64,000 nt of DNA, taken from the NCBI GenBank assembly GCA_951406725.2, contig OX597843.1, positions 1,240,001 to 1,304,000 on the forward strand, read 5' to 3'. Source of the stretch: Octopus vulgaris (taxonomy: Eukaryota). Each line of letters begins with the position of its first letter. The stretch's first letter is position 1. Shown here one piece after another: positions 10,401-64,000 of the stretch. Under the pieces are notes generated by a model that was given only the letters and a program-made list of their open reading frames with translations, had not been told where the DNA came from and ran no database searches. A program made the translations under genes and the position numbers.

Positions 10401-10629
10401 TGTTTCTTTATTGCCCACAAGGGGCCAAACATAGAGGGGACAAACAAGGACAGACAAATGGATTAAGTCGATTACATTGACCCCAGTGCGTAACTGGTAC
10501 TTAATTTATCGACCCCGAAAGGATGAAAGGCAAAGTCGACCTCGGCGGAATTTGAACTCAGAACGCAATGACCGCAATACCGCTAAGCATTTCGCCTGGT
10601 GTGCTAACGTTTCTGCCAGCTTTCCGCCT
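10401..10629 (-). mobile_element. SINE family C (Tx1-like 3' tail)
   Basis: Head GCTGGCAGAAACGTTAGC, B-box-like GAGTTCAAATTCC, tail GCCCCTTGTGGGCAATAAAGAAA; TSD TCATATCT. Confidence 0.85.
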
Positions 10630-10949: not shown

Positions 10950-11137
10950 ACCTATTTCTTTATTACCCACAAGGGGCTAAACATAAAAGGGACAAACAAG
11001 GACAGACATAGGTATTAAGTCGATTACATCGACCCCAGTGCGTAACTGGTACTTAATTTATCGACCCCGAAGGGATGAAAGGCAAAGTCAACCTCGGCAG
11101 AATTTGAACTCACATTCCACCAAGGTCGACTTTGCCT
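10950..11137 (-). mobile_element. SINE family C, 5'-truncated with inverted 5' segment
   Basis: Tail near 10955, body to ~11112, then an inverted copy of ATTCCACCAAGGTCGACTTTGCC; TSD TATGAGAT. Confidence 0.8.
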
Positions 11138-35138: not shown

Positions 35139-35728
35139 GGGCGGTGAGCTGGCTGAAACGTTAGTGCGCCAGGCGAAATGCTTAGCGGTATTTCGTCTGT
35201 CGCTACGTTCTGAGTTCAAACTCCGCCGAGGTCGTCTTTGCCTTTCATCCTTTCGGGGTCGATTAAATAAGTACCAGTTACGCACTGGGGTCGATGTAAT
35301 CGACTTAATTCGTTTGTTTGTCCTTGTTTGTCCCCTCTGTGTTTAGCCCCTTGTGGGTAGTAAAGAAATAGGTATTTCGTCTGCCGCTACGTTCTGAGTT
35401 CAAATTCCACCGAGGTCGACTTTGCCTTTCATCCATTCAGAGTCGATAAATTAAGTACCAGTTACGTATTGGGGTCGATATAATCGACTTAATTCGTTTG
35501 TTTGTCCTTGTTTGTCTTCTGTGTTTAGCCCCTTGTGGGTAGTAAAGAAATAGAAATAGGTATTTCGTCTGTCTTTACGTTCTGAGTTCAAATTCCGCTG
35601 AGGTCGACTTTGCCTTTCATCCTTTCGGGGTCGATTAAATAAGTACCAGTTATGCACTGGGGTCGATATAATCGACTTAATTCGTTTGTTTGTCCTCTGT
35701 GTTTAGCCCCTTGTGGGTAATAAAGAAA
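35139..35728 (+). mobile_element. SINE family C tandem/nested trimer
   Basis: One head followed by three body/tail units that restart at GGTATTTCGTCTG; outer TSD TAGATATATCTATC. Confidence 0.85.
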
Positions 35729-35863
35729 TAGATATATCTATCTTTCCCTCACTGCATTGATTTCCTTGAAAGGAACCTATTTCCATATCTCTGTTTCTCT
35801 CTCTTGTAGTCTTCCTAATGTCTGACTGATCCTTTTGTTTTCCCCTTCTTGCTCTCCTTACAG

Positions 35864-36880: not shown

Positions 36881-37491
36881 TGACTAATAATTGACTATAT
36901 AATTATAATTATTATTATTATCATTCAGGCCACAACCTGGCAGAATCATTAGCATGCCAGGCGAAATGCTTAGCAGCGTTCTGTTTACCCCTATGTTCTG
37001 AGTTCAAATTCTGGCGAGGTGGACATCACTTTTCATCCTTTTGGGGGTCAATAAATTAAATACCAAGTGAAACACGGGGTGGTGGTGGCAGGGTTACGGC
37101 TCATTTTGGCCAGCTGAGAAAATGAGAAAGATCTCATAAAAGGGCATGAAAATCTGTTTATGAGTGTTAATCCGGTCTTAACAGTGGCATTTGTGGGTCT
37201 CACAGATCTGAAGGCCAAGTCCCCAGATAAACACTGATGTGCAGGCTATTGTTATCAAACTGTTTTACCTCTAGGAAGATCATTAGATAAATGGACAACC
37301 CAGAATTGGATAATGCAGTACGTAGGGTTCGGACTCTTCAAATAGGTTTGTCAACGTAAATTTGATTAGTCTTCATCAGCTGCATTTACCTAGGGAGTAT
37401 TTCAAATGTTGGTACATCAATGCCAGTATACTCGCCTGAACACTTAGCCGTTAACAGAACGGGAACAGTGAAAAAGTTTTCAATGAAGAAA

Positions 37492-40579: not shown

Positions 40580-40764
40580 GGAATCCAAGGTGAACTGGGA
40601 TCAAGAGATCCGAGATGATGTCATTGAGGAGTGCAACAAACACGGTGGTGTAGTGCACATCTATGTGGACAAAGCTTCTGTACTGGGCAATGTCTATGTA
40701 AAGTGTCCCAATATTGCAGCAGCAGTCGCATCTGTCAATGCGCTGCATGGCAGATATTTTGCAG
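40580..40764 (+). CDS. RBM39: RBM39 exon, UHM/RRM3
   Basis: Encodes ESKVNWDQEIRDDVIEECNKHGGVVHIYVDKASVLGNVYVKCPNIAAAVASVNALHGRYFA (RxF UHM motif). Confidence 0.97.
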
Positions 40765-40854
40765 GTAAGCACTTTTGCTGTTGTTTAGGCCTTAGGCCAT
40801 TTGTGTGGTGGAAGCTGGTCCAGCTGTGAAAATATTAGATTTTATTCAGACACA

Positions 40855-47207: not shown

Positions 47208-47236
47208 ATAGCATGGCCTGCTAGCTGAAGATACCT

Positions 47237-47432
47237 ATTTCTTTACTACCCACAAGGGGCTAAACACAGAGAAGACAAACAAGGACAGACACACGGATTA
47301 AGTCGATTATATCGACTCCAGTGTGTAACTGGTACTTAATTTAATCTGAGTTTGAACTCAGAACGTAACGGCAGACGAAATACGGCTACGCATTTCGCCT
47401 GGCGTGCTAACGTTTCTGCCAGCTCGCCGCCT
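47237..47432 (-). mobile_element. SINE family C, internally deleted
   Basis: 15-bp TSD TAGCTGAAGATACCT. Confidence 0.85.
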
Positions 47433-49224: not shown

Positions 49225-51248
49225 ATCTCTGTGTATGTGTGTTCGTTCCGTAGACAAAGCATCAACCGTGCTCTGTGTTCGTGTGTTCGTTCCGTCTACA
49301 TAGCATCAACCTCGCTCTGTCTGTGTTCGTGTGTTCGTTCCGTCTACATTGCATCAACCTCGCTCTGCCTGTGTTCATGTGTTCGTTCCGTCTACATAGC
49401 ATCAACCGCGCTCTGTCTGTGTTCGTGTGTTCGTTCCGTAGACATAGCATCAACCGCGCTCTGTGTATGTGTGTTCGTTCCGTCTACATAGCATCAACCT
49501 CGCTCTGTCTGTGTTCGTGTGTTCGTTCCGTCTACATAGCATCAACCGCGCTCTGTGTATGTGTGTTCGTTCCGTCTACATAGCATCAACCTCGCTCTGT
49601 CTGTGTACGTGTGTTCGTTCCGTGTACATAGCACCAACCTCGCTCTGTCTGTGTTCGTGTGTTCGTTCCGTCTGCATAGCATCTACCTCGCTCTGTCTGT
49701 GTACGTGTGTTCGTTCCGTTTACATAGCATCAACCTCGCTCTGTGTACGTGTGTTCGTTCCGTTTACATAGCATCAACCTCGCTCTGTGTACGTGTGTTC
49801 GTTCCGTTTACATAGCATCAACCTCGCTCTGTGTACGTGTGTTCGTTCCGTTTACATAGCATCAACCTCGCTCTGTGTACGTGTGTTCGTTCCGTTTACA
49901 TAGCATCAACCTCGCTCTGTGTACGTGTGTTCGTTCCGTTTACATAGCATCAACCTCGATCTGTGTACGTGTGTTCGTTCCGTTTACATAGGATCAACCT
50001 CGCTCTGTGTACGTGTGTGCGTTCCGTTTACATAGCATCAACCTCGCTCTGTGTACGTGTGTTCGTTCCGTTTACATAGCATCAACCTCGCTCAGTGTAC
50101 GTGTGTTCGTTCCGTTTAAATAGGATCAACCTCGCTCTGTGTACGTGTGTTCGTTCCGTTTACATAGCATCAACCTCGCTCTGTGTACGTGTGTTCGTTC
50201 CGTTTACATAGCATCAACCTCGCTCTGTGTACGTGTGTTCGTTCCGTTTACATAGCATCAACCTCGCTCTGTGTACGTGTGTTCGTGCCGTTTACATAGC
50301 ATCAACCTCGCTCTGTGTACGTGTGTGCGTTCCGTAGACATAGCATCAACCTCGCTCTGTGTACGTGTGTTCGTTCCGTTTACATAGCATCAACCTCGCT
50401 CTGTGTACGTGTGTTCGTTCCGTAGACATAGCATCAACCTCGCTCTGTGTACGTGTGTTCGTTCCGTAGACATAGCATCAACCTCGCTCTGTGTACGTGT
50501 GTTCGTTCCGTTTACATAGCATCAACCTCGCTCTGTGTACGTGTGTTCGTTCCGTAGACATAGCATCAACCTCGCTCTGTGTACGTGTGTTCGTTCCGTC
50601 TACATAGCATCAACCTCGCTCTGTGTACGTGTGTTCGTTCCGTAGACATAGCATCAACCTCGCTCTGTGTACGTGTGTTCGTTCCGTAGACATAGCATCA
50701 ACCTCGCTCTGTGTACGTGTGTTCGTTCCGTAGACATAGCATCAACTTCGCTCTGTGTATGTGTGTTCGTTCTGTAGACATGGCATCTACCTTGCTCTGT
50801 GTACGTGTGTTCGTTCCGTAGACATAGCATCAACCTCGCTCTGTGTACGTGTGTTCGTTCCGTAGACATAGCATCAACCTCGCTCTGTGTACGTGTGTGC
50901 GTTCCGTAGACATAGCATCAACCTCGCTCTGTGTACGTGTGTTCGTTCCGTAGACATAGCATCAACCTCGCTCTGTGTACGTGTGTTCGTTCCGTAGACA
51001 TAGCATCAACCTCGCTCTGTGTACGTGTGTTCGTTCCGTAGACATAGCATCAACCTCGCTCTGTGTACGTGTGTTCGTTCTGTTTACATAGCATCAACCT
51101 CGCTCTGTGTACGTGTGTGCGTTCCGTTTACATAGCCTCAACCTCGCTCTGTGTAAGTGTGTGCGTTCCGTAGACATAGCATCAACCTCGCTCTGTGTAC
51201 GTGTGTTCGTTCTGTTTACATAGCATCAACCTCGCTCTGTGTACGTGT
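49225..51248. repeat. Satellite array, left part (44-bp monomer; 44/48 mix at the edge)
   Basis: Monomer CTCTGTGTACGTGTGTTCGTTCCGTAGACATAGCATCAACCTCG. Confidence 0.97.
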
Positions 51249-51494
51249 TGTTTTATTATTACCCACAAGGGGCGAACACAGATGGGACAATACATTCTGA
51301 TGATGGGGTCAGACAAACGAATGGGTTTTTACAATAAATCGGGTTTTAAAATTTTCATGAATAACAATAAATGGACAAAAATCGAGTGATAGGACAGACC
51401 GGAAGACATTACGGGTGGAGTGGGTGCGGGTTTAGCTCGGACCCCACGAGCCCCGCCTCCCCACTGATACTTTTGGTTGCACTTGGTATTACAT

Positions 51495-54400
51495 TTATGT
51501 TGTAACTTTCATTCGCAACTTCCGTGCTACATCCATCCATCGTTCTTCATACGCTCTCCTAGTCAGGCATATTCTCTCCAGCCCTATCTTCCTTTTCAGG
51601 TGAAAGATGAAATAATTCATCAAACCAGGGCCGGAGATGAACTTGCCTGACTGTAAACCTTTCATTCTCGTCTTCCATATCACCTCTTTCGCGATTGCTA
51701 CTACAACGAGAAAACGAAACTTACCTTCATTCACGAGGAAATCCGGTGGGTCAATTTTTGTAATCGACTCAGTCGACAGCTGTACTCTTCGTGTACCTGA
51801 CAACAGGTGTTCGGCATAAACCCACACCTCAGACACGTCCGGACAATGAACAATCGCGTGCGGGACGGTTTCCCTATCCCGCCCGCATCTTGGACATATC
51901 GGACTGTCTTGGCCACCGTGCCTTGCGAGTTTATCCCGAACAGGTAGAGCTCCTCTGTAGCATTGCCATGCCAGAGACTTCTGGAAGTTGTCCAGTGTCC
52001 TTGGCTCGAACGTACGTCGGAACAGACTGGCCAGCTGATTATCGTCGAGACCTAGGGTTTCCCCCAAGGTATCTTCACATTCCGCCTCTACCAACCCTCT
52101 ATAGAAGAAAGTGGTGGAACCCCCACCGCAGGCGTTGCCCGAGCGACGGAATAGCAGGAGAGCCTTGCGACACTCCGTGTACCAAGTACCAAGTTTCGAT
52201 CTACGACTCAGCCAGGTTTCCCATCCACCGAAACTAGTGAACTTGGGAAACATCAGTTTTGCTAGCGAAGACCACACCCGTTCACTATCCAGGTAGAGCC
52301 ACAGATGTCTTAACCTCAGCGCATGTCTGCGCATCATCAGCCAAGGCATCCCTAGCCCACCCTTTAACGGTTGTTGACAGCAAGTAGAGCGTTTCACAAG
52401 TGGTTTCCCGCCCTTCCACAAGAAGTAGAAGAGCTGTCTTTCCAACTTGATCAACCACGAATCAGGGCAAGGAACGACGGAAAGGCGGTAGGTGATAACC
52501 GATGCGATAAACACATTGGCCACCTCCGCCCTCCCTTTCAGGGATAGCCACCGCCAAGACCAGGTCTTGGCTACTGCAGCCACCTTGCTCGTTACCTCGC
52601 CCCAATTCTTCTCTATTTGGAGGTCTGGACCGAACCAGACCCCTAGCAGTTTAATCGGACCCTCCGTCCAACGTCCCACGACGCTGTCAGGAGGCATCGA
52701 CTTGCCTCTCCAGGTGCCGAGTTGCAAGCCGACTGACTTTTCGCGATTAACTTTTGCTCCTGTCACCGTCTCGTACACCTCTATGGCCTTGCCTACTTTA
52801 CATAGGTGGTCCATTTCGGTTACGATGATGGTGATGTCATCCGCGTACGCTGACACTGATTTTCCATTACCTGGCTGTCTCGGGATGCCGCTCAGTTTTC
52901 GCAGTAATGGCTCAAGAGCCATCACGTACAAAAGCGGGGAGAGCGGACACCCTTGACGAACCGAGCGTTTGATTTTGAACGGCTTCGACAAGAAGCCGTT
53001 CACCCGAACTACCGAGTCGATGTTATCATAAATTTCGATAATCCACCTGAGGAATCCAAGGCTCAGCCCGAACTGTGCCAGGGCAGATACCAGGTAACGA
53101 TGGTCGACCCTATCAAAAGCTTTAGATTGGTCTAAATGGACCAGTGCCCCACCCTTGCCAGAATCACTATTAAACCCCTCTATAGTGTACCGCATTAGAT
53201 GGAGATTATCCTGAATGGATCTGCCCGGAACGGCACATGTCTGTGCCCCTCCGATCAGACCATCCGCGACACGCGCCAATCTTTTCGATAACACTTTGGC
53301 CAAAATCTTCAACTCTGTGTTTAGCAGAGTGATGGGCCTGAAATTATCAATGCACTCCCCCTTGCTCGGGTCCTTTCTGACGAGAGTCACTACTCCCCGG
53401 CGCACAGATCTGGGTATAAGCCCGTTCTGCTGCCAGTTCGCGTAGACCTCCGCCAGTAGGTGCCCGAACAAGTCTGGCATACTCTTATATAACTCATAGG
53501 GTAGACCATCCAAACCCGGCGCCTTGCCCGCGCCGCAGTCCGCCATTGCCTCAACCACCTCCTCAGGCGTGATTGGCCCTTCACAGCCCTCCGCATCTCG
53601 CCCCGATAAGCGCGGCAGACCGTCGAGTAGGTCCGTAAAGGCCCTCCTCCTATCCAGTCCGCCGCACTCACCGAAAAGCTGAGCGAAGTGCTCCTGAAAG
53701 GCCTCACACATCTCCTCGGGTTCGTTTATCAACTCACCTTGTTGGTTCGTCAAAGATCGAATCGTGGCATCGTTACCATGCTGAGCTTCCACCACTCGGG
53801 CCCATCTCACGGCGTTGATTCCTTCACATCCCATATGACGGATTCTAGCCCTGACAATGCAGCCCATGTGTTTGGCCTCGAGGTGCTGGTTTAACACCAG
53901 TCTCTTGGCCGCCACCTGAGCCGCAGAGCCAGTTTTCATGGCTTCCTCTAATTCCTTAACTAGAGTAGTTTCCCTTCTAGCCTCTCTAGCCACTACTCCT
54001 ATGCTATATCTAATAGACTCAAACTTGATGGCTCGTTTGAGGGCGTACCACCATTTGTTATTAATGATGGTACCAGATAGTGCCCTCTGAATTATATTCC
54101 TAATCCGGTCTTTGTACTCCTTAATCGCCAAAAGGGACGTATTAAGTTTCCAGTAACCGGATCCTCTATTTTTAACCTTATCTATGTCAAGCTTACAAGT
54201 GACCATTTTATGATCACTGTAGCTGATCGGGTAAAACTGTGGACACTTAGCTATTTTACTGTCTACTTTTCTAATTAGTATTCTATCTAGATACGACCTG
54301 GAAGATCCGTCGCTGTTTGACCATGTCCACAATGGAGCGTTCGGAAATTCCAGCCTATAAGGATCTGCTAGCTCAAAGCGGCTTAGCAGTTCCATGAAGC

Positions 54401-54890
54401 CACTGTTGCCTTTTCTATCTGGACACGAGCCAACATAATCTACATCCGCTTTGCAAATTGTGTTAAAGTCTCCTAGCACCACTAATGAATGCGAAGTACC
54501 AAGAAAGTTTTCTAGTTCACGAAAATAATCACTTTGCCCTGTATGGTTGGGTGCGTAAATTGCAACCAGTCTGATAACTTTACCATTACTGAACGTCAAA
54601 TCCATGACGACCAGACTACCTTCTGGATCTGCAAAAATTAACTTTTTCTCAGAAACCCGGTTTCTTTTTAATAGGACCAACACCCCACTCCCGCCTGTAG
54701 GACTGCCAGGAGAGAAAAAACTCTCGTAGCCGTCAAACAGCGGGAGTAGACCTCTTGGCCCCTCTAGCCGGGTTTCTGTAGCAACAATAACATCTAAATT
54801 ACGCGACCTGATATCATGCAGGAAGCGACCTTGCTTCCAGCCTGCTCCCAGGCCGCGCACATTTAAACAACCAACATAAATGTAATCCAT
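51495..54890 (-). CDS. Tx1/L1 ORF2: APE endonuclease, reverse transcriptase and C-terminal CCHC (1131 aa, uninterrupted)
   Basis: Motifs LNVRGL, ETR, IYAPN, GDFN, LDRILI, SDH (APE); GYWKLNTSLL; KAPGLDG, FRPITLLN, DQSKAFDRV, RQGCPLSP, YADD (RT); CPRC-x8-H-x4-C. Confidence 0.97.
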   Translation of the reverse strand: MDYIYVGCLNVRGLGAGWKQGRFLHDIRSRNLDVIVATETRLEGPRGLLPLFDGYESFFSPGSPTGGSGVLVLLKRNRVSEKKLIFADPEGSLVVMDLTFSNGKVIRLVAIYAPNHTGQSDYFRELENFLGTSHSLVVLGDFNTICKADVDYVGSCPDRKGNSGFMELLSRFELADPYRLEFPNAPLWTWSNSDGSSRSYLDRILIRKVDSKIAKCPQFYPISYSDHKMVTCKLDIDKVKNRGSGYWKLNTSLLAIKEYKDRIRNIIQRALSGTIINNKWWYALKRAIKFESIRYSIGVVAREARRETTLVKELEEAMKTGSAAQVAAKRLVLNQHLEAKHMGCIVRARIRHMGCEGINAVRWARVVEAQHGNDATIRSLTNQQGELINEPEEMCEAFQEHFAQLFGECGGLDRRRAFTDLLDGLPRLSGRDAEGCEGPITPEEVVEAMADCGAGKAPGLDGLPYELYKSMPDLFGHLLAEVYANWQQNGLIPRSVRRGVVTLVRKDPSKGECIDNFRPITLLNTELKILAKVLSKRLARVADGLIGGAQTCAVPGRSIQDNLHLMRYTIEGFNSDSGKGGALVHLDQSKAFDRVDHRYLVSALAQFGLSLGFLRWIIEIYDNIDSVVRVNGFLSKPFKIKRSVRQGCPLSPLLYVMALEPLLRKLSGIPRQPGNGKSVSAYADDITIIVTEMDHLCKVGKAIEVYETVTGAKVNREKSVGLQLGTWRGKSMPPDSVVGRWTEGPIKLLGVWFGPDLQIEKNWGEVTSKVAAVAKTWSWRWLSLKGRAEVANVFIASVITYRLSVVPCPDSWLIKLERQLFYFLWKGGKPLVKRSTCCQQPLKGGLGMPWLMMRRHALRLRHLWLYLDSERVWSSLAKLMFPKFTSFGGWETWLSRRSKLGTWYTECRKALLLFRRSGNACGGGSTTFFYRGLVEAECEDTLGETLGLDDNQLASLFRRTFEPRTLDNFQKSLAWQCYRGALPVRDKLARHGGQDSPICPRCGRDRETVPHAIVHCPDVSEVWVYAEHLLSGTRRVQLSTESITKIDPPDFLVNEGKFRFLVVVAIAKEVIWKTRMKGLQSGKFISGPGLMNYFIFHLKRKIGLERICLTRRAYEERWMDVARKLRMKVTT

Positions 54891-54904
54891 TACTTACCTT
54901 TATA

Positions 54905-56279
54905 TCAGTGGTTCGGTTTTTTCTTCTTCTTCCTTCTCTTTTTCTGGGCCTCGTGGGGAGTCTGACGTAGGCCCTCGAATATATGTGGAGATGTTACATC
55001 CAACCTAAGTGGGCCTACGTCATGGAAGAAATCTGACTTTATCCGCCCGTAATCCTTCCGGTCTATTTTGTAAATTGCAAAGTCATTTTTTTTCTCTACT
55101 CTCTTCACATTGGCCATGGCTGCCAACACGTTTCCGAGTCTGCTATTTGATGCTTTTACAGCCATATATGAGTTTATTGACTCTTTTTTCTTTTTTAAAA
55201 TTACTCTGGGAGGGGTGGTTTCCGTTTTTCTTTTTTTTTTTCCGATAATTTTTGCCCACCCCTCCTCATTTATCTTTTCTTCGCTCTTTTTTTCCTCCGC
55301 CGCTGGTTCTGCTGTTACCATCACCTCCACACCTTCAGTCTTCCCATCTGGGCCGTCTGACGCTGCTTCTGATGACACATTGTCTTCTTTTTCCTTTTGG
55401 CTTAGGTGCTTCCTGCGGTTTGGGTTGGGGCTGGCATTCCGCCCTTACATGCCCCTTCTTACCGCAGCCGAAGCACCTCGGCTTTCTGCCCTCTACGAAG
55501 ACTGTGACTCTTTCATCTTCGCTTATCCTAAGAGTCTCTGGGATCTCTTCCAGGGTTTGTACTTCTGCTTGTATGGCTATTATTATCTTTTGCCCTTTCC
55601 AGAATTCTTCTTCTTCTACGGTGGCCTGGAGGATGTTTATTTTTTCCTCCAGGCCTACCATAACTGCTGCCACTAAGACTTCGGCATCCGCTTCTGGCGG
55701 GATGTTGTTCATAGTGATTTTGGAAGTTCTCTTGCCTTTATACAGGGGTAGGAGAACAATATCCTCTGCTTTTATGGGTTCCATGGATAGCTTCTTTGCT
55801 ACCTCCTCTGACGTGAATCTCACCTCCACTGTGCCGTATTTCTTCCCTCGATTGATATACGTAATTTTGTCCATTATTGGCTTTAAGCAGTTTTCAATCT
55901 TTTTCTCTTCTATTTTTTGGATTGCTCTGTTTGTTATACTGAATGTCTTATAGATTATTCTCCTATTCGAAATATCCTCTTGTATTTTGGCGTTTGAAGC
56001 CACGGTTACTTCTGTGCCCTCTTTTGACACACAGTCTGCATGTTTTCCCAGGTTGTCCACGTTAATTTTTTTAATTTTCTTCCCAGCCACTTCAGCGAAT
56101 TTTTTTGCTGGAGTTGATGCTGGTACTGGTTTTACCATTTTCTTGGGCGACGCCGCCTCTTTTTTCTTCGGCGACAGCGCCTCTTTTTTTCTTGGCGACA
56201 ACGCCTCTTTTTTACTTGGCGACAACGCCGGGTATTCCTCCTCGCTCGTCACGGGCGAATAAGTGATGGGGGACTCCAT
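54905..56279 (-). CDS. Tx1/L1 ORF1 (nucleic-acid binding, zinc knuckle) split by one frameshift near 55395
   Basis: ATG at 56279; SPKK-like repeats; CFGCGKKGHVRAEC knuckle; the reading continues in another frame (KEKEDNVSSEAAS...) to TGA at 54905. Confidence 0.8.
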
Positions 56280-56362
56280 TTTGAACAAATGGCTTTAACA
56301 AGCCTTTGGTAATCTAAATTGATTGTAGTTTTCCCCCACTGAGGGGGGAACACCAACACCAA

Positions 56363-59300
56363 CATCAACCTCGCTCTGTGTACGTGTGTTCGTTCTGTTT
56401 ACATAGCATCAACCTCGCTCTGTGTACGTGTGTGCGTTCCGTTTACATAGCATCAACCTCGCTCTGTGTACGTGTGTTCGTTCCGTAGACATAGCATCAA
56501 CCTCGCTCTGTGTACGTGTGTTCGTTCCGTTTACATAGCATCAACCTCGCTCTGTGTACGTGTGTTCGTTCCGTCTACATAGCATCAACCTCGCTCTGTG
56601 TACGTGTGTTCGTTCTGTTACATAGCATCAACCTCGCTCTGTGTACGTGTGTTCGTTCCGTAGACATAGCATCAACCTCGCTCTGTCTGTACGTGTGTTC
56701 GTTCCGTAGACATAGCATCAACCACGCTCTGTGTACGTGTGTTCGTTCTGTCTGCATAGCATAAACCTCGCTCTGTGTACGTGTGTTCGTTCCGTAGACA
56801 TAGCATCAACCTCGCTCTGTGTACGTGTGTTCATTCCGTAGACATAGCATCAACCTCGCTCTGTGTACGTGTGTTCGTTCCGTAGACATAGCATCAACCT
56901 CGCTCTGTGTATGTGTGTTCGTTCCGTAGACATGGCATCTACCTTGCTCTGTGTACGTGTGTTCGTTCCGTCTACATAGCATCAACCTCGCTCTGTGTAC
57001 GTGTGTTCGTTCTGTTTACATAGCATCAACCTCGCTCTGTGTACGTGTGTTCGTTCCGTAGACATAGCATCAACCTCGCTCTGTGTACGTGTGTTCGTTC
57101 CGTAGACATAGCATCAACCTCGCTCTGTGTACGTGTGTTCGTTCTGTTTACATAGCATCAACCTCGCTCTGTGTACGTGTGTGCGTTCCGTTTACATAGC
57201 ATCAACCTCGCTCTGTGTACGTGTGTTCGTTCTGTTTACATAGCATCAACCTCGCTCTGTGTACGTGTGTGCGTTCCGTTTACATAGCATCAACCTCGCT
57301 CTGTGTACGTGTGTTCGTTCCGTAGACATAGCATCAACCTCGCTCTGTGTACGTGTGTTCGTTCCGTAGACATAGCATCAACCTCGCTCTGTGTACGTGT
57401 GTGCGTTCCGTAGACATAGCATCAACCACGCTCTGTGTACGTGTGTTCGTTCCGTAGACATAGCATCAACCTCGCATAAACTCAATCTGTCTGTGTACGT
57501 GTGTTCGTTCCGTAGACATAGCATCAACCTCGCTCTGTGTACGTGTGTTCGTTCTGTTTACATAGCATCAACCTCGCTCTGTGTACGTGTGTGCGTTCCG
57601 TAGACATAGCATCAACCTCGCTCTGTGTACGTGTGTTCGTTCCGTAGACATAGCATCAACCTCGCTCTGTGTACGTGTGTTCGTTCCGTTTACATAGCAT
57701 CAACCTCGCTCTGTGTACGTGTGTTCGTTCCGTAGACATAGCATCAACCTCGCTCCGTGTATGTGTGTTCGTTCTGTCTGCATAGCATAAACACCAATCT
57801 GTCTGTGTACGTGTGTTCGTTCCGTAGACATAGCATCAACCACGCTCTGTGTACGTGTGTTCGTTCTGTCTGCATAGCATAAACATAAATCTGTCTGTGT
57901 ACGTGTGTTCGTTCCGTAGACATAGCATCAACCACGCTCTGTGTATGTGTGTTCGTTCTGTCTGCATAGCATAAACATCAATCTGTCTGTGTACGTGTGT
58001 TCGTTCCGTAGACATAGCATCAACCACGCTCTGTGTATGTGTGTTCGTTCTGTCTGCATAGCATAAACATCAATCTGTCTGTGTACGTGTGTTCGTTCCG
58101 TAGACATAGCATCAACCACGCTCTGTGTATGTGTGTTCGTTCTGTCTGCATAGCATAAACATCAATCTGTCTGTGTACGTGTGTTCGTTCCGTAGACATA
58201 GCATCAACCACGCTCTGTGTACGTGTGTTCGTTCTGTCTGCATAGCATAAACATCAATCTGTCTGTGTACGTGTGTTCGTTCCGTAGACATAGCATCAAC
58301 CACGCTCTGTGTACGTGTGTTCGTTCTGTCTGCATAGCATAAACATCAATCTGTCTGTGTACGTGTGTTCGTTCCGTAGACATAGCATCAACCACGCTCT
58401 GTGTATGTGTGTTCGTTCTGTCTGCATAGCATAAACATCAATCTGTCTGTGTACGTGTGTTCGTTCCGTAGACATAGCATCAACCACGCTCTGTGTACGT
58501 GTGTTCGTTCTGTCTGCATAGCATAAACATAAATCTGTCTGTGTACGTGTGTTCGTTCCGTAGACATAGCATCAACCACGCTCTGTGTACGTGTGTTCGT
58601 TCTGTTTGCATAGCATAAACATCAATCTGTCTGTGTACGTGTGTTCGTTCCGTAGACATAGCATCAACCACGCTCTGTGTATGTGTGTTCGTTCTGTCTG
58701 CATAGCATAAACACCAATCTGTCTGTGTACGTGTGTTCGTTCCGTAGACATAGCATCAACCACGCTCTGTGTATGTGTGTTCGTTCTGTCTGCATAGCAT
58801 AAACACCAATCTGTCTGTGTACGTGTGTTCGTTCCGTAGACATAGCATCAACCACGCTCTGTGTATGTGTGTTCGTTCTGTCTGCATAGCATAAACATCA
58901 ATCTGTCTGTGTACGTGTGTCGTTCCGTAGACATAGCATCAACCACGCTCTGTGTATGTGTGTTCGTTCTGTTTGCATAGCATAAACATCAATCTGTCTG
59001 TGTACGTGTGTTCGTTCCGTAGACATAGCATCAACCACGCTCTGTGTACGTGTGTTCGTTCTGTCTGCATAGCATAAACATCAATCTGTCTGTATAAGTG
59101 TGTTCGTTCCGTAGACATAGCATCAACCACGCTCTGTGTACGTGTGTTCGTTCTGTTTGCATAGCATAAACATCAATCTGTCTGTGTACGTGTGTTCGTT
59201 CCGTAGACATAGCATCAACCACGCTCTGTGTATGTGTGTTCGTTCTGTTTGCATAGCATAAACATCAATCTGTCTGTGTACGTGTGTTCGTTCCGTGGAC

Positions 59301-62300
59301 ATAGCATCAACCACGCTCTGTGTATGTGTGTTCGTTCTGTCTGCATAGCATAAACACCAATCTGTCTGTGTACGTGTGTTCGTTCCGTAGACATAGCATC
59401 AACCACGCTCTGTGTACGTGTGTTCGTTCTGTTTGCATAGCATAAACATCAATCTGTCTGTGTACGTGTGTTCGTTCCGTAGACATAGCATCAACCACGC
59501 TCTGTGTATGTGTGTTCGTTCTGTTTGCATAGCATAAACATCAATCTGTCTGTGTACGTGTGTTCGTTCCGTAGACATAGCATCAACCACGCTCTGTGTA
59601 TGCGTGTTCGTTCTGTCTGCATAGCATAAACATCAATCTGTCTGTGTACGTGTGTTCGTTCCGTAGACATAGCATCAACCACGCTCTGTGTACGTGTGTT
59701 CGTTCTGTCTGCATAGCATCAACATCAATCTGTCTGTGTACGTGTGTTCGTTCCGTAGACATAGCATCAACCACGCTCTGTGTATGTGTGTTCGTTCTGT
59801 CTGCATAGCATAAACATAAATCTGTCTGTGTACGTGTGTTCGTTCCGTAGACATAGCATCAACCTCGCTCTGTGTATGTGTGTTCGTTCTGTCTGCATAG
59901 CATAAACATCAATCTGTCTGTGTACGTGTGTTCGTTCCGTAGACATAGCATCAACCACGCTCTGTGTATGTGTGTTCGTTCTGTCTGCATAGCATAAACA
60001 TCAATTTGTCTGTGTACGTGTGTTCGTTCCGTAGACATAGCATCAACCTCGCTCTGTGTACGTGTGTTCGTTCCGTAGACATAGCATCAACCACGCTCTG
60101 TGTACGTGTGTTCGTTCTGTCTGCATAGCATAAACATAAATCTGTCTGTGTACGTGTGTTCGTTCCGTAGACATAGCATCAACCTCGCTCCGTGTATGTG
60201 TGTTCGTTCTGTTTAGCATAGCATAAACATCAATCTGTCTGTGTACGTGTGTTCGTTCCGTCTACATAGCATCAACCACGCTCTGTGTATGTGTGTTCGT
60301 TCTGTCTGCATAGCATAAACATCAATCTGTCTGTGTACGTGTGTTCGTTCCGTAGACATAGCATCAACCACGCTCTGTGTATGTGTGTTCGTTCTGTCTG
60401 CATAGCATAAACATCAATCTGTCTGTGTACGTGTGTTCGTTCCGTAGACATAGCATCAACCACGCTCTGTGTATGTGTGTTCGTTCTGTCTGCATAGCAT
60501 AAACATCAATCTGTCTGTGTACGTGTGTTCGTTCCGTAGACATAGCATCAACCACGCTCTGTGTATGTGTGTTCGTTCTGTCTGCATAGCATAAACATCA
60601 ATCTGTCTGTGTACGTGTGTTCGTTCCGTAGACATAGCATCAACCACGCTCTGTGTATGTGTGTTCGTTCTGTCTGCATAGCATAAACATCAATCGCTCT
60701 GTGTACGTGTGTTCGTTCTGTTTACATAGCATCAACCTCGCTCTGTGTACGTGTGTGCGTTCCGTGTCTGCATAGCATAAACACCAATCTGTCTGTGTAC
60801 GTGTGTTCGTTCCGTAGACATAGCATCAACCTCGCTCTGTGTACGTGTGTTCGTTCTGTTTACATAGCATCAACCTCGCTCTGTGTACGTGTGTTCGTTC
60901 CGTAGACATAGCATCAACCTCGCTCTGTGTACGTGTGTTCGTTCTGTCTGCATAGCATAAACATCAATCTGTCTGTGTACGTGTGTTCGTTCCGTAGACA
61001 TAGCATCAACCACGCTCTGTGGACGTGTGTTCGTTCTGTCTGCATAGCATAAACATCAATCTGTCTGTGTACGTGTGTTCGTTCCGTAGACATAGCATCA
61101 ACCACGCTCTGTGTATGTGTGTTCGTTCTGTCTGCATAGCATAAACATCAATCTGTCTGTGTACGTGTGTTCGTTCCGTAGACATAGCATCAACCACGCT
61201 CTGTGTATGTGTGTTCGTTCTGTCTACATAGCATCAACCTCGCTCTGTGTACGTGTGTTCGTTCCGTAGACATAGCATCAACCTCGCTCTGTGTACGTGT
61301 GTTCGTTCTGTCTGCATAGCATAAACATCAATCTGTCTGTGTACGTGTGTTCGTTCCGTAGACATAGCATCAACCACGCTCTGTGTATGTGTGTTCGTTC
61401 TGTCTGCATAGCATAAACATCAATCTGTCTGTGTACGTGTGTTCGTTCCGTAGACATAGCATCAACCACGCTCTGTGTACGTGTGTTCGTTCTGTCTACA
61501 TAGCATCAACCTCGCTCTGTGTACGTGTGTTCGTTCCGTAGACATAGCATCAACCTCGCTCTGTGTAAGTGTGTTCGTTCTGTCTACATAGCATCAAACA
61601 TAAATCTGTCTGTGTACGTGTGTTCGTTCCGTAGACATAGCATCAACCACGCTCTGTGTATGTGTGTTCGTTCTGTCTGCATAGCATAAACATCAATCTG
61701 TCTGTGTACGTGTGTTCGTTCCGTAGACATAGCATCAACCACGCTCTGTGTACGTGTGTTCGTTCCGTAGACATAGCATCAATCTCGCTCTGTGTACGTG
61801 TGTTCGTTCCGTAGACATAGCATCAACCACGCTCTGTGTATGTGTGTTCGTTCTGTCTGCATAGCATAAACATCAATCTGTCTGTGTACGTGTGTTCGTT
61901 CCGTAGACATAGCATCAACCACGCTCTGTGTATGTGTGTTCGTTCTGTCTGCATAGCATAAACAACCACGCTCTGTGTACGTGTGTTCGTTCCGTAGACA
62001 TAGCATCAACCACGCTCTGTGTATGTGTGTTCGTTCTGTCTGCATAGCATAAACATCAATCTGTCTGTGTACGTGTGTTCGTTCCGTCTACATAGCATCA
62101 ACCACGCTCTGTGTACGTGTGTTCGTTCTGTCTGCATAGCATAAACATCAATCTGTCTGTGTACGTGTGTTCGTTCCGTAGACATAGCATCAACCACGCT
62201 CTGTGTATGTGTGTTCGTTCTGTCTGCATAGCATAAACATCAATCTGTCTGTGTACGTGTGTTCGTTCCGTAGACATAGCATCTACCTCGCTCTGTGTAC

Positions 62301-64000
62301 GTGTGTTCGTTCTGTCTACATAGCATAAGAATCACTCTGTCTGTGTACGTGTGTTCGTTCCGTAGACATAGCATCAACCACGCTCTGTGTATGTGTGTTC
62401 GTTCTGTCTGCATAGCATAAACATCAATCTGTCTGTGTACGTGTGTTCGTTCCGTTTACATAGCATCAACCACGCTCTGTGTAAGTGTGTTCGTTCCGTC
62501 TGACATAGCATCAACCTCGCTCTGTGTACGTGTGTTCGTTCCGTTTACATAGCATCAACCTCGCTCTGTGTACGTGTGTTCGTTCCGTTTACATAGCATA
62601 AACATCATTCTCTCTGTGTACGTGTGTTCGTTCCGTAGACATAGCATCAACCTCGCTCTGTGTACGTGTGTTCGTTCCGTCTGCATAGCATAAACACCAA
62701 TCTGTCTGTGTACGTGTGTTCGTTCCGTAGACATAGCATCAACCTCGCTCTGTGTACGTGTGTTCGTTCTGTTTGCATAGCATAAACGTTAATCTGTCTG
62801 TGTACGTGTGTTCGTTCCGTAGGCATAGCATCAACCACGCTCTGTGTACGTGTGTTCGTTCTGTCTGCATAGCATAAACATCAATCTGTCTGTGTACGTG
62901 TGTTCGTTCCGTTTACATAGCATCAACCTCGCTCTGTGTACGTGTGTTCGTTCCGTCTACATAGCATAAACATCAATCTGTCTGTGTACGTGTGTTCGTT
63001 CCGTGGACATAGCATCAACCACGCTCTGTGTACGTGTGTTCGTTCTGTCTGCATAGCATAAACATCAATCTGTCTGTGTACGTGTGTTCGTTCCGTGGAC
63101 ATAGCATCAACCACGCTCTGTGTACGTGTGTTCGTTCTGTCTGCATAGCATAAACACCAATCTGTCTGTGTATGTGTGTTCGTTCCGTGGACATAGCATC
63201 AACCACGCTCTGTGTACGTGTGTTCGTTCTGTCTGCATAGCATAAACGTCAATCTGTCTGTGTACGTGTGTTCGTTCCGTAGACATAGCATCAACCACGC
63301 TCTGTGTACGTGTGTTCGTTCTGTCTGCATAGCATAAACATCAATCTGTCTGTGTACGTGTGTTCGTTCCGTAGACATAGCATCAACCTCGCTCTGTGTA
63401 CGTGTGTTCGTTCCGTTTACATAGCATCAACATCATTCTCTCTGTGTACGTGTGTTCGTTCCGTAGACATAGCATCAACCTCGCTCTGTGTACGTGTGTT
63501 CGTTCCGTTTACATAGCATAAACATCAATCTGTCTGTGTACGTGTGTTCGTTCCGTAGACATAGCATCAACCACGCTCTGTGTACGTGTGTTCGTTCTGT
63601 TTGCATAGCATAAACATCAATCTGTCTGTGTACGTGTGTTCGTTCCGTAGACATAGCATCAACCACGCTCTGTGTACGTGTGTTCGTTCTGTTTGCATAG
63701 CATAAACATCAATCTGTCTGTGTACGTGTGTTCGTTCCGTTTACATAGCATCAACCACGCTCTGTGTACGTGTGTTCGTTCTGTTTGCATAGCATAAACA
63801 TCAATCTGTCTGTGTACGTGTGTTCGTTCCGTAGACATAGCATCAACCACGCTCTGTGTATGTGTGTTCGTTCTGTCTGCATAGCATAAACATCAATCTG
63901 TCTGTGTACGTGTGTTCGTTCCGTAGACATAGCATCAACCACGCTCTGTGTACGTGTGTTCGTTCTGTTTGCATAGCATCCACATCAATCTGTCTGTGTA
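56363..64000. repeat. Satellite array, right part: 44-bp monomers, then a 92-bp (44+48) higher-order repeat from ~57740; runs off the window end
   Basis: Alternating ...ATCAACCACG and ...ATAAACATCAATCTGT monomers; spurious ORFs recur every 92 bp. Confidence 0.97.

What the first reader, a model, noticed from the sequence alone, without database searches (positions are those of the whole stretch)
51249..51325. Tx1 LINE and SINE family C share their 3' tail: a candidate LINE-SINE partnership captured in one window
Seen: the LINE 3' end (sense) reads ATTCGTTTGTCTGACC-(insert)-TTGTCCCATCTGTGTT-CGCCCCTTGTGGGTAATAAtaaaac. SINE C (for example ~35307-35370 and 14802-14860) ends ATTCGTTTGTTTGTCC-TTGTTTGTCCCCTCTGTGTTTAGCCCCTTGTGGGTA(A/G)TAAagaaat. 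Neither has a poly(A) tail. Established: SINEs that share a LINE 3' tail are mobilised by that LINE family, whereas mammalian L1 relies on poly(A). Inference: this Tx1 lineage, or a close relative, drives SINE C by recognising the tail. I cannot tell whether this pair has already been described.
Basis: partly seen in the sequence, partly recalled or inferred. Interest (0 to 1): 0.85.

Follow-up and report, generated by a model that had tools for sequence, protein, structure and literature searches.

The report
SINE borrows a Tx1-type LINE's tail
A very abundant short mobile element in this (likely octopus) genome ends in the same ~46-65 letters as a whole group of L1/Tx1-type jumping genes, so it likely borrows their copying enzyme through that tail, most likely from an older sister family rather than the young copy in this window, a pairing we did not find described for Tx1-type elements.

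Summary
The tail match is real: 39 of the SINE's last 46 letters match the LINE end, above all 300 shuffles. It is no one-off capture: 40 of 40 scored copies of this LINE family (A) carry it, and so do sister families only 55-72% alike in ORF2, so it passed from LINE to SINE. CR1-, RTE- and R4-like LINE ends sampled do not match. Family A itself is an unlikely driver: its copies are 99-100% alike (SINE copies median ~94%), it lands at ACATGG inside one Helitron-like repeat, and it lacks the SINE's last letters. An older sister subfamily (K2) fits better: 41-42/46 tail match with the same end, 93-98% copy identity, 13-18-bp duplications, and 8 of 14 copies at AGAA sites, the favourite site of the oldest SINE subtype. 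No LINE was found that shares the younger SINEs' GGTA site. Tail recognition is inferred, not assayed, and Tx1 membership lacks a named reference. Shared tails are well known, but a published table of 58 pairs has no Tx1 or animal L1-clade partner.

The parts
51249..56362 (-). LINE family A copy, about 145 nt short at its 5' end compared with full-length copies, inserted in a 44-bp tandem array
51249..51325 (-). 3' tail shared with the SINE: two TGTC/GACCC-type blocks, a 3-bp hairpin (GCCCC-TTGT-GGG) and an AATAA-rich end; the core match is 51249-51294
51495..54893 (-). Open ORF2 frame, 1132 codons: endonuclease (PF03372), reverse transcriptase (PF00078), zf-RVT (PF13966)
55335..56279 (-). ORF1, main part, with a CCHC zinc knuckle; in this copy ORF1 is spread over two frames
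54905..55444 (-). Second frame, likely the C-terminal part of ORF1
   Evidence: inference
49227..51248 (.). 44-bp tandem array on the LINE's 3' side; the target begins ACACG
56363..63980 (.). 44/92-bp tandem array on the LINE's 5' side; a 25-bp apparent duplication is ambiguous inside the array
35140..35730 (+). SINE array: full copy 35140-35370 plus two units starting at SINE position 48 (35371-35552, 35559-35730); 13-bp duplication around the whole array
14801..15032 (-). Full SINE copy, 12-bp target duplication
15596..15826 (+). Full SINE copy, 11-bp target duplication
10403..10628 (-). Full SINE copy of the older GGGCAATAAA subtype, 13-bp duplication
10953..11112 (-). 5'-truncated SINE copy with the tail
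47236..47431 (-). SINE copy with an internal deletion and the tail, 15-bp duplication

Best explanation
The 231-nt SINE ends in the 3' tail of an L1/Tx1-type LINE lineage of this genome and is likely copied in trans by that lineage's ORF2 protein, which is predicted to recognise the tail; the main driver was likely an older sister subfamily (K2) rather than the window's young family A. Shown: the tail is common to many families of one LINE clade. It joins the SINE exactly where sister SINEs with the same head and body switch to other tails. The SINE makes 8-23-bp target duplications and prefers short target words. Inferred: (1) the tail was acquired by a reverse-transcriptase template switch onto an existing SINE body; (2) the SINE RNA is made by polymerase III from A/B-box-like motifs; (3) ORF2p binds the small hairpin and the AAUAAAGAAAUA end and performs target-primed reverse transcription without poly(A); (4) the RNA end, or read-through into the flank, pairs with the cut DNA. 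Step 4 would explain why AGAA sites are used by K2 and old SINE copies, why younger SINEs home to GGTA at position 48 of their own body and build arrays, and why family A homes to ACATGG.
For: All 40 scored A copies span the tail and 30 of 30 loci read it. 17 of 20 LINE 3' regions match the SINE's 3' part above all 300 shuffles. The nine family sequences with a usable RT form one clade, support 1.00, and A+I+K have 0.99. The SINE body is shared with two older SINE groups that have other tails, switching at about position 166. CR1-like (20 loci), RTE-like and other (5 fragments) and R4/Dong-like (7 loci) ends score 12-24, shuffle level. K2: 41-42/46 match including the terminal AAAGAAATA; 9 copies are 92.8-98.1% like their majority; duplications of 13-18 bp in 6 of 14 copies; AGAA after the tail in 8 of 14 (background 0.7%); 2 copies are followed by SINE sequence from position 14-15, one of them with SINE letters 1-15 on its 5' side (L314). 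The oldest SINE subtype (median 88.5%) has AGA after 6 of 15 tails, and SINE-in-SINE joints at position 15 occur (L063, L364). The hairpin has 4 compensatory cells, 2 of 500 shuffles.
Against: No ORF2-bearing copy is followed by GGTA, the site of most SINE copies: 0 of 153 3' ends, many of them redundant. A genome-wide pattern for a LINE-type tail plus GGTA gave 1 match, in a SINE array. K2 appears to have only tens of copies (a lower bound) against roughly 2x10^5 SINE loci. The tails fold no better than shuffles (z from -1.2 to +1.1); the hairpin is only 3 bp, and related sequences inflate the covariation test. Families D and T fail the shuffle test and S is confounded. Rfam and ARAGORN find no tRNA in the SINE head. 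No function was assayed.
Confidence: 0.72

Rival explanations
1. The window's own family A is the direct and main mobiliser of the SINE, with the target chosen by the RNA's flank rather than by the endonuclease.
For: A is intact, young and has roughly 200 copies (26 of the first 100 rows of 805 matches). Its tail matches 39/46, and its upstream block (ATTCGTTTGTCTG) is very close to the SINE's. It already shares its target with ORF1-only elements carrying the tail.
Against: Full copies are 99.0-99.6% like the window copy, while tail-bearing SINE units in a random sample are 85-96% like their majority. 28 of 29 other A copies are followed by ACAT or ACAC; no ACA flank appears among 123 SINE tails. 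A lacks the SINE's terminal letters.
Confidence: 0.1
2. The tail is a relic of the SINE's birth; copying now depends on relaxed recognition, for example poly(A) added at the AAUAAA signal, by this or another LINE.
For: The tail holds a polyadenylation-like hexamer. The hairpin is weak. No LINE shares the GGTA site.
Against: No poly(A) in the copies read. The tail is kept to the last letter and followed directly by the duplication. The oldest subtype shares the AGAA site with K2.
Confidence: 0.12
3. The direction is reversed: the LINE picked up a SINE fragment.
For: LINEs of this lineage do insert into SINE copies (L314).
Against: The tail sits at the 3' end of families 55-72% alike in ORF2 and varies along the lineage, while the SINE's sister families lack it.
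Confidence: 0.03
4. Chance likeness of T/C-rich and A-rich ends.
For: The match is short and ends in an AATAAA-like motif.
Against: Scores of 50-60 against shuffle maxima of 28-37. The match is at the 3' terminus of both elements. Other LINE clades do not match.
Confidence: 0.02

Closest known systems
Stringent-type SINE/LINE pairs with a common 3' tail (e.g. UnaSINE1/UnaL2; table of 58 pairs in Ohshima 2013, PMC3747384, Table 1 and passages read)
   Same: Small-RNA-like head, body, and about 50 nt of LINE 3' end with a hairpin; module swapping of tails on one body.
   Different: No partner in that table is Tx1. Here there is no poly(A) and no terminal microsatellite of its own, and the SINE has a target-word preference.
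L1-clade stringent pairs: maize ZmSINE2/3 with LINE1-1_ZM, Chlamydomonas SINEX-3_CR with L1-1_CR (Ohshima 2012, PMC3472496, first third of the text read)
   Same: L1-clade partner; about 45-50 conserved terminal letters with a hairpin across diverged LINEs.
   Different: [quoted passage not shown] This would be an animal case.
SINEU and Tx1-Mar of crocodilians (Kojima 2015, PMC4494074, passages and section 16 read)
   Same: A Tx1 group proposed to move a SINE; both land inside other transposons; different Tx1 families proposed for different SINE subgroups.
   Different: That link rests on shared targets, ages and 5' heads, not on a 3' tail, and the heads are snRNA-derived. Here the tail is shared, and targets match only for the oldest subtype.
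Target-specific Tx1 elements: Tx1 in Tx1D, Kibi and Koshi in microsatellites (as summarised in PMC4494074)
   Same: Family A homes to one site of another transposon; sister families home to (ATT)n, (TATC)n and (TC)n.
   Different: A's host looks like a non-autonomous Helitron (features recalled). One search for Tx1 with Helitron targets listed six papers; none had this in title or abstract (listing only).
HAL1-type ORF1-only elements (named in Kojima 2018, PMC5786205, passage read)
   Same: Elements B and C of about 1.7 kb encode an ORF1-like protein only.
   Different: They carry this shared tail and sit at family A's target.

Membership tests
SINE/LINE pair with common tail | Homology confined to the 3' termini of both elements | tested here: met
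SINE/LINE pair with common tail | The tail is a family feature of the LINE, inside its 3' UTR | tested here: met
   40 of 40 and 30 of 30 copies; 17 of 20 lineage 3' regions
SINE/LINE pair with common tail | Conserved stem-loop in the tail | tested here: inconclusive
   3-bp hairpin, 81.8% paired, 4 compensatory cells; folding energy not above shuffles
SINE/LINE pair with common tail | Overlapping time of activity and insertion signature, for family A | tested here: not met
   A is 99-100% alike and lands at ACATGG; the SINE is 85-96% and lands at GGTA, TATA or AGAA
SINE/LINE pair with common tail | Overlapping time of activity and insertion signature, for subfamily K2 | tested here: inconclusive
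   Age and duplication length overlap and the AGAA site is shared with the oldest subtype; GGTA is not shared; n = 14
SINE/LINE pair with common tail | Tail-dependent trans-mobilisation | not testable with these tools
   needs a cell assay
L1 clade (L1 plus Tx1) | ORF1 plus ORF2 with apurinic-type endonuclease and RT closest to L1 | tested here: met
   Pfam; best solved relative human L1 ORF2p, E 8e-65, against R2 5e-26
Tx1 clade | RT groups with named Tx1 elements in a tree | not testable with these tools
   No hit carried a Tx1 name; the tree has no named Tx1 or animal L1
Tx1 clade | Target-sequence preference (many families, PMC4494074) | tested here: met
   21 of 29 copies beside the same repeat; LINE pairs 99.7% alike, flanks 93.7%
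Tx1 clade | ORF1 with a CCHC zinc knuckle rather than the mammalian L1 type (recalled) | tested here: met
   zf-CCHC in 7 of 7 ORF1s at E<=1, best 1.8e-5; link to fish ZCCHC3-like ORF1 is weak
tRNA-derived SINE | Short, high-copy, non-coding, flanked by target duplications | tested here: met
   231 nt; duplication of 8 bp or more in 29 of 66 full copies, median 14; 14 loci in 200 kb
tRNA-derived SINE | Head homologous to a tRNA, with A and B boxes | tested here: inconclusive
   Box-like motifs by eye (consensus recalled); no Rfam or ARAGORN match
Deu/Nin or Meta SINE superfamily | Conserved central domain | not tested
   No Deu/Nin reference could be aligned; Meta-SINE sequences in a supplement (part 1 of 4) look unlike it by eye; a Nin/Inv likeness is recalled only

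The most novel reading that the evidence does not exclude
This is the first animal L1-clade (Tx1) lineage with stringent, poly(A)-independent tail recognition and a tail-sharing SINE, one that reached about 10^5 copies. The same ORF2 machinery is steered to different targets by the RNA's own 3' end and read-through, so that each cargo (LINE, ORF1-only element, SINE subfamily) writes its own target preference and the SINE evolved self-homing into its own body.
Probability: 0.3. Interest if true: 0.75.

Novelty: new variant of a known kind. Interest (0 to 1): 0.55.

Why it matters
Ohshima proposed that the L1 clade was ancestrally stringent and relaxed to poly(A) recognition in mammals and plants; the examples were only plant and algal. 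A tail conserved across a Tx1-type lineage and copied into a major SINE would add an animal case. It also makes the question testable, since family A has open ORF2 frames. The set of families with one tail but different targets is a natural system for asking whether the endonuclease or RNA-DNA pairing picks the site. It would also name the likely engine of one of the commonest repeats in this genome.

Tried and rejected
Capture of a SINE fragment by one copy: rejected. Hitch-hiking of family A on its host repeat: rejected, since LINE copies are 99.7% alike and their flanks 93.7%, and contigs join across the empty site. Search for a LINE with the GGTA target: three degenerate ORF2 patterns (3202, 805 and 163 matches, 100 rows listed each), a tail-plus-target pattern and DNA searches found none; only listed rows could be followed, so rare families can be missed. 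Partners for the two sister-SINE tails: no match in the CR1-, RTE- or R4-like ends sampled. Named Tx1 reference: none. Expression: no RNA holder on record; contigs of four runs guessed to be RNA cover 29 of 30 bins, which is no evidence either way. A maximum-likelihood tree run was killed and replaced by FastTree. Row L038 was dropped from the family A duplication count (indexing error). Literature searches listed no paper whose title or abstract reports this pair. Albertin 2015 was not held; Ohshima and Okada 1994, Repbase, Dfam, the SINEBase supplements and the Zenodo library of PMC13282606 could not be read and may already hold the SINE or the pair. Earlier scan notes: nothing by sequence or place.

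Full report
Setting. The window lies on contig C30 of a 2.8-Gb genome. From its size and repeats I take it to be an octopus; this is inference. Family letters (A, K2 and so on) are my own labels.

The observation. On the minus strand, 51249-56362 is a LINE with an open 1132-codon ORF2 (endonuclease, RT, zf-RVT) and a CCHC-knuckle ORF1, inserted in a 44-bp tandem array. Its last letters match the 3' end of a 231-nt SINE that has eight tail-bearing units in the window. 39 of the SINE's last 46 letters match; the score of 51 exceeds all 300 shuffles (maximum 28). No poly(A) is present. The 16-nt 'insert' is ordinary LINE sequence present in most A/K-lineage tails.

Is the tail the LINE's own? Yes. 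All 40 scored copies of family A span it at 99-100%, and 30 of 30 loci read it. Searches with a relative's protein and with degenerate ORF2 patterns revealed many sister families, 55-72% alike to A in ORF2 for the complete ones. The nine genome RTs put in the tree form one clade (support 1.00; A, I and K 0.99; 45 sequences, FastTree). Of 20 3' regions tested, 17 match the SINE's 3' part above all 300 shuffles, D and T do not, and S is confounded by a neighbouring SINE; the two G copies match only the upstream part. So the tail is ancestral in this LINE clade. On the SINE side, the same head and body occur with two other tails in older families (23 and 11 of 179 distinct ends; body identity 87% and 83%), and the switch lies at about position 166, where the LINE likeness begins. 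The direction is LINE to SINE, by a tail swap.

Controls. A young CR1-like family (20 loci), five RTE-like or other fragments and an R4/Dong-like family (7 loci) score 12-24 against the tail, the level of shuffles. These clade names come from recalled motifs, and the sample is small beside the hundreds of LINE families an octopus annotation lists (633, of which 80 L1-Tx1; PMC13282606 supplement).

Which clade? The closest solved protein is human L1 ORF2p (E 8e-65; R2 5e-26). No database hit carried a Tx1 name, so membership in Tx1 is not shown by phylogeny. It works like Tx1: a zinc-knuckle ORF1 and family-specific targets, which are (ATT)n for D, (TATC)n for E and F, and (TC)n for H.

Is family A the driver? 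Probably not. Fifteen near-full copies are 99.0-99.6% like the window copy. 21 of 29 copies sit before the same repeat, whose copies are 93.7% alike against 99.7% for the LINE, so they inserted independently. The target begins ACATGG, with 12-19-bp duplications in 10 of 14 copies. The host is about 1 kb, with ends like a non-autonomous Helitron (features recalled), and empty sites exist. ORF1-only elements with the same tail share this host. The SINE is older: tail-bearing units in 20 evenly chosen 10-kb regions are 85-96% like the majority. It numbers 14 loci and 41 units in 200 kb, 26 units in one region, which scales roughly to 2x10^5 loci. Duplications of 8-23 bp (median 14) were found in 29 of 66 full copies; 17 arrays could not be resolved. 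Of 121 distinct tails, 60 are followed by SINE sequence from position 48; in 14 of 19 cases where the next unit lacks this tail it carries a sister tail, which shows insertion into older SINEs rather than local duplication. Among 51 solitary tails, 16 are followed by GGTA (background 0.3%). This set is biased towards copies like the window's.

A better candidate. Subfamily K2 (ORF2 71% like A and 87% like K) matches 41-42 of 46 letters and ends in the SINE's AAAGAAATA. Nine copies are 92.8-98.1% like their majority. Six of 14 copies show 13-18-bp duplications, and 8 of 14 are followed by AGAA. Two are followed by SINE sequence from position 14-15; in L314 SINE letters 1-15 lie on the LINE's 5' side and the SINE's own 16-bp duplication encloses all. 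The SINE's oldest subtype (GGGCAATAAA, median 88.5%) is followed by AGA in 6 of 15 and GGT in 2; the youngest (median 95.2%) by GGT in 56 of 74. So K2 and the old SINEs share a site. Against this, no LINE copy followed by GGTA was found (0 of 153; one pattern match, in a SINE array), K2 seems rare, and the numbers are small.

Mechanism. Established: stringent LINEs recognise a 3' tail that partner SINEs copy (PMC3747384, passages read). Inferred here: ORF2p of the A/I/K lineage binds the tail and primes reverse transcription at a cut in DNA. The hairpin is small: 82% of cells pair and 4 change on both sides, but whole tails fold no better than shuffles. The overlap between RNA end and target (AAGAAA with AGAA sites) and the self-homing of both SINE and family A suggest that pairing of the RNA end or read-through with the target helps pick the site. 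That would let one enzyme group serve cargos with different targets; it is untested.

Prior knowledge. Ohshima's table of 58 pairs has no Tx1 partner; its L1-clade pairs are from maize, sorghum and Chlamydomonas. Kojima 2015 links SINEU to Tx1-Mar by targets, ages and heads. Bivalve surveys report CR1, CR1-Zenon, L2 and Nimb partners (PMC11481361, passages; PMC4824008, passages). PMC13282606 (two of three text parts and the supplement read) lists 13 recently active L1-Tx1 families and names no pair in what was read. PMC4758252, PMC3531059, PMC5786205, PMC5804259, PMC9004415 and PMC10351740 were seen as passages only. Ten searches listed no report of this pair, but Repbase, Dfam and older octopus SINE papers were out of reach.

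Verdict. A real, lineage-wide shared tail and a likely new variant of SINE-LINE partnership, with the partner assignment moved from the window's family to a sister. Odds: tail from this LINE clade 0.95; mobilised by the clade through the tail, with a sister family as main driver, 0.72; family A as main driver 0.1. Interest 0.55.

Noticed in passing
L037, L124 (G000:C16:45326800-45336799 and upstream); L122: A ~1-kb repeat with Helitron-like ends and a decayed ORF1-like piece is the landing site of LINE family A and of several ORF1-only elements; L122 holds five tail-bearing units about 1.7 kb apart.
   Followed up: partly
L032:517-5836, L130, L123: ORF1-only 'half' elements (B, C; about 1.7 kb) with the shared tail, often in head-to-tail runs; HAL1-like.
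   Followed up: partly
L039, L050, L111-L112: Full-length LINEs form head-to-tail arrays (A at about 5.26 kb spacing, D at about 5.87 kb); A's 5' junction carries target-like letters that sometimes differ from the 3' flank.
   Followed up: partly
L273 (G000:C28:25000001-25010000): 26 SINE units within 10 kb, including arrays of 184-nt and 151-nt units; a SINE turning into a local satellite.
   Followed up: no
L056, L061, L260, L261; window 36937-37065: Two older SINE groups share head and body but have other tails, often ending in ATT repeats; their partner LINEs were not found.
   Followed up: partly
window 19283-19388 (+): Full-length U6 snRNA match (108.8 bits) followed by about 45 other letters and a short TAGA run; possibly a U6-retroposon chimera.
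   Followed up: no
window 49227-51248 and 56363-63980: A 44/48-bp tandem array of more than 9 kb with 92- and 184-bp higher-order units, split by the LINE.
   Followed up: no
window 40700-40830 (+): Frame reading like an RRM of an RBM39-type splicing factor (label recalled), so the SINE copies nearby may lie in introns of a host gene.
   Followed up: no
L274-L293; L301-L306: A very young CR1-like family ending in (TAAC)n and an R4/Dong-like family at (TAA)n, both with long open frames.
   Followed up: partly
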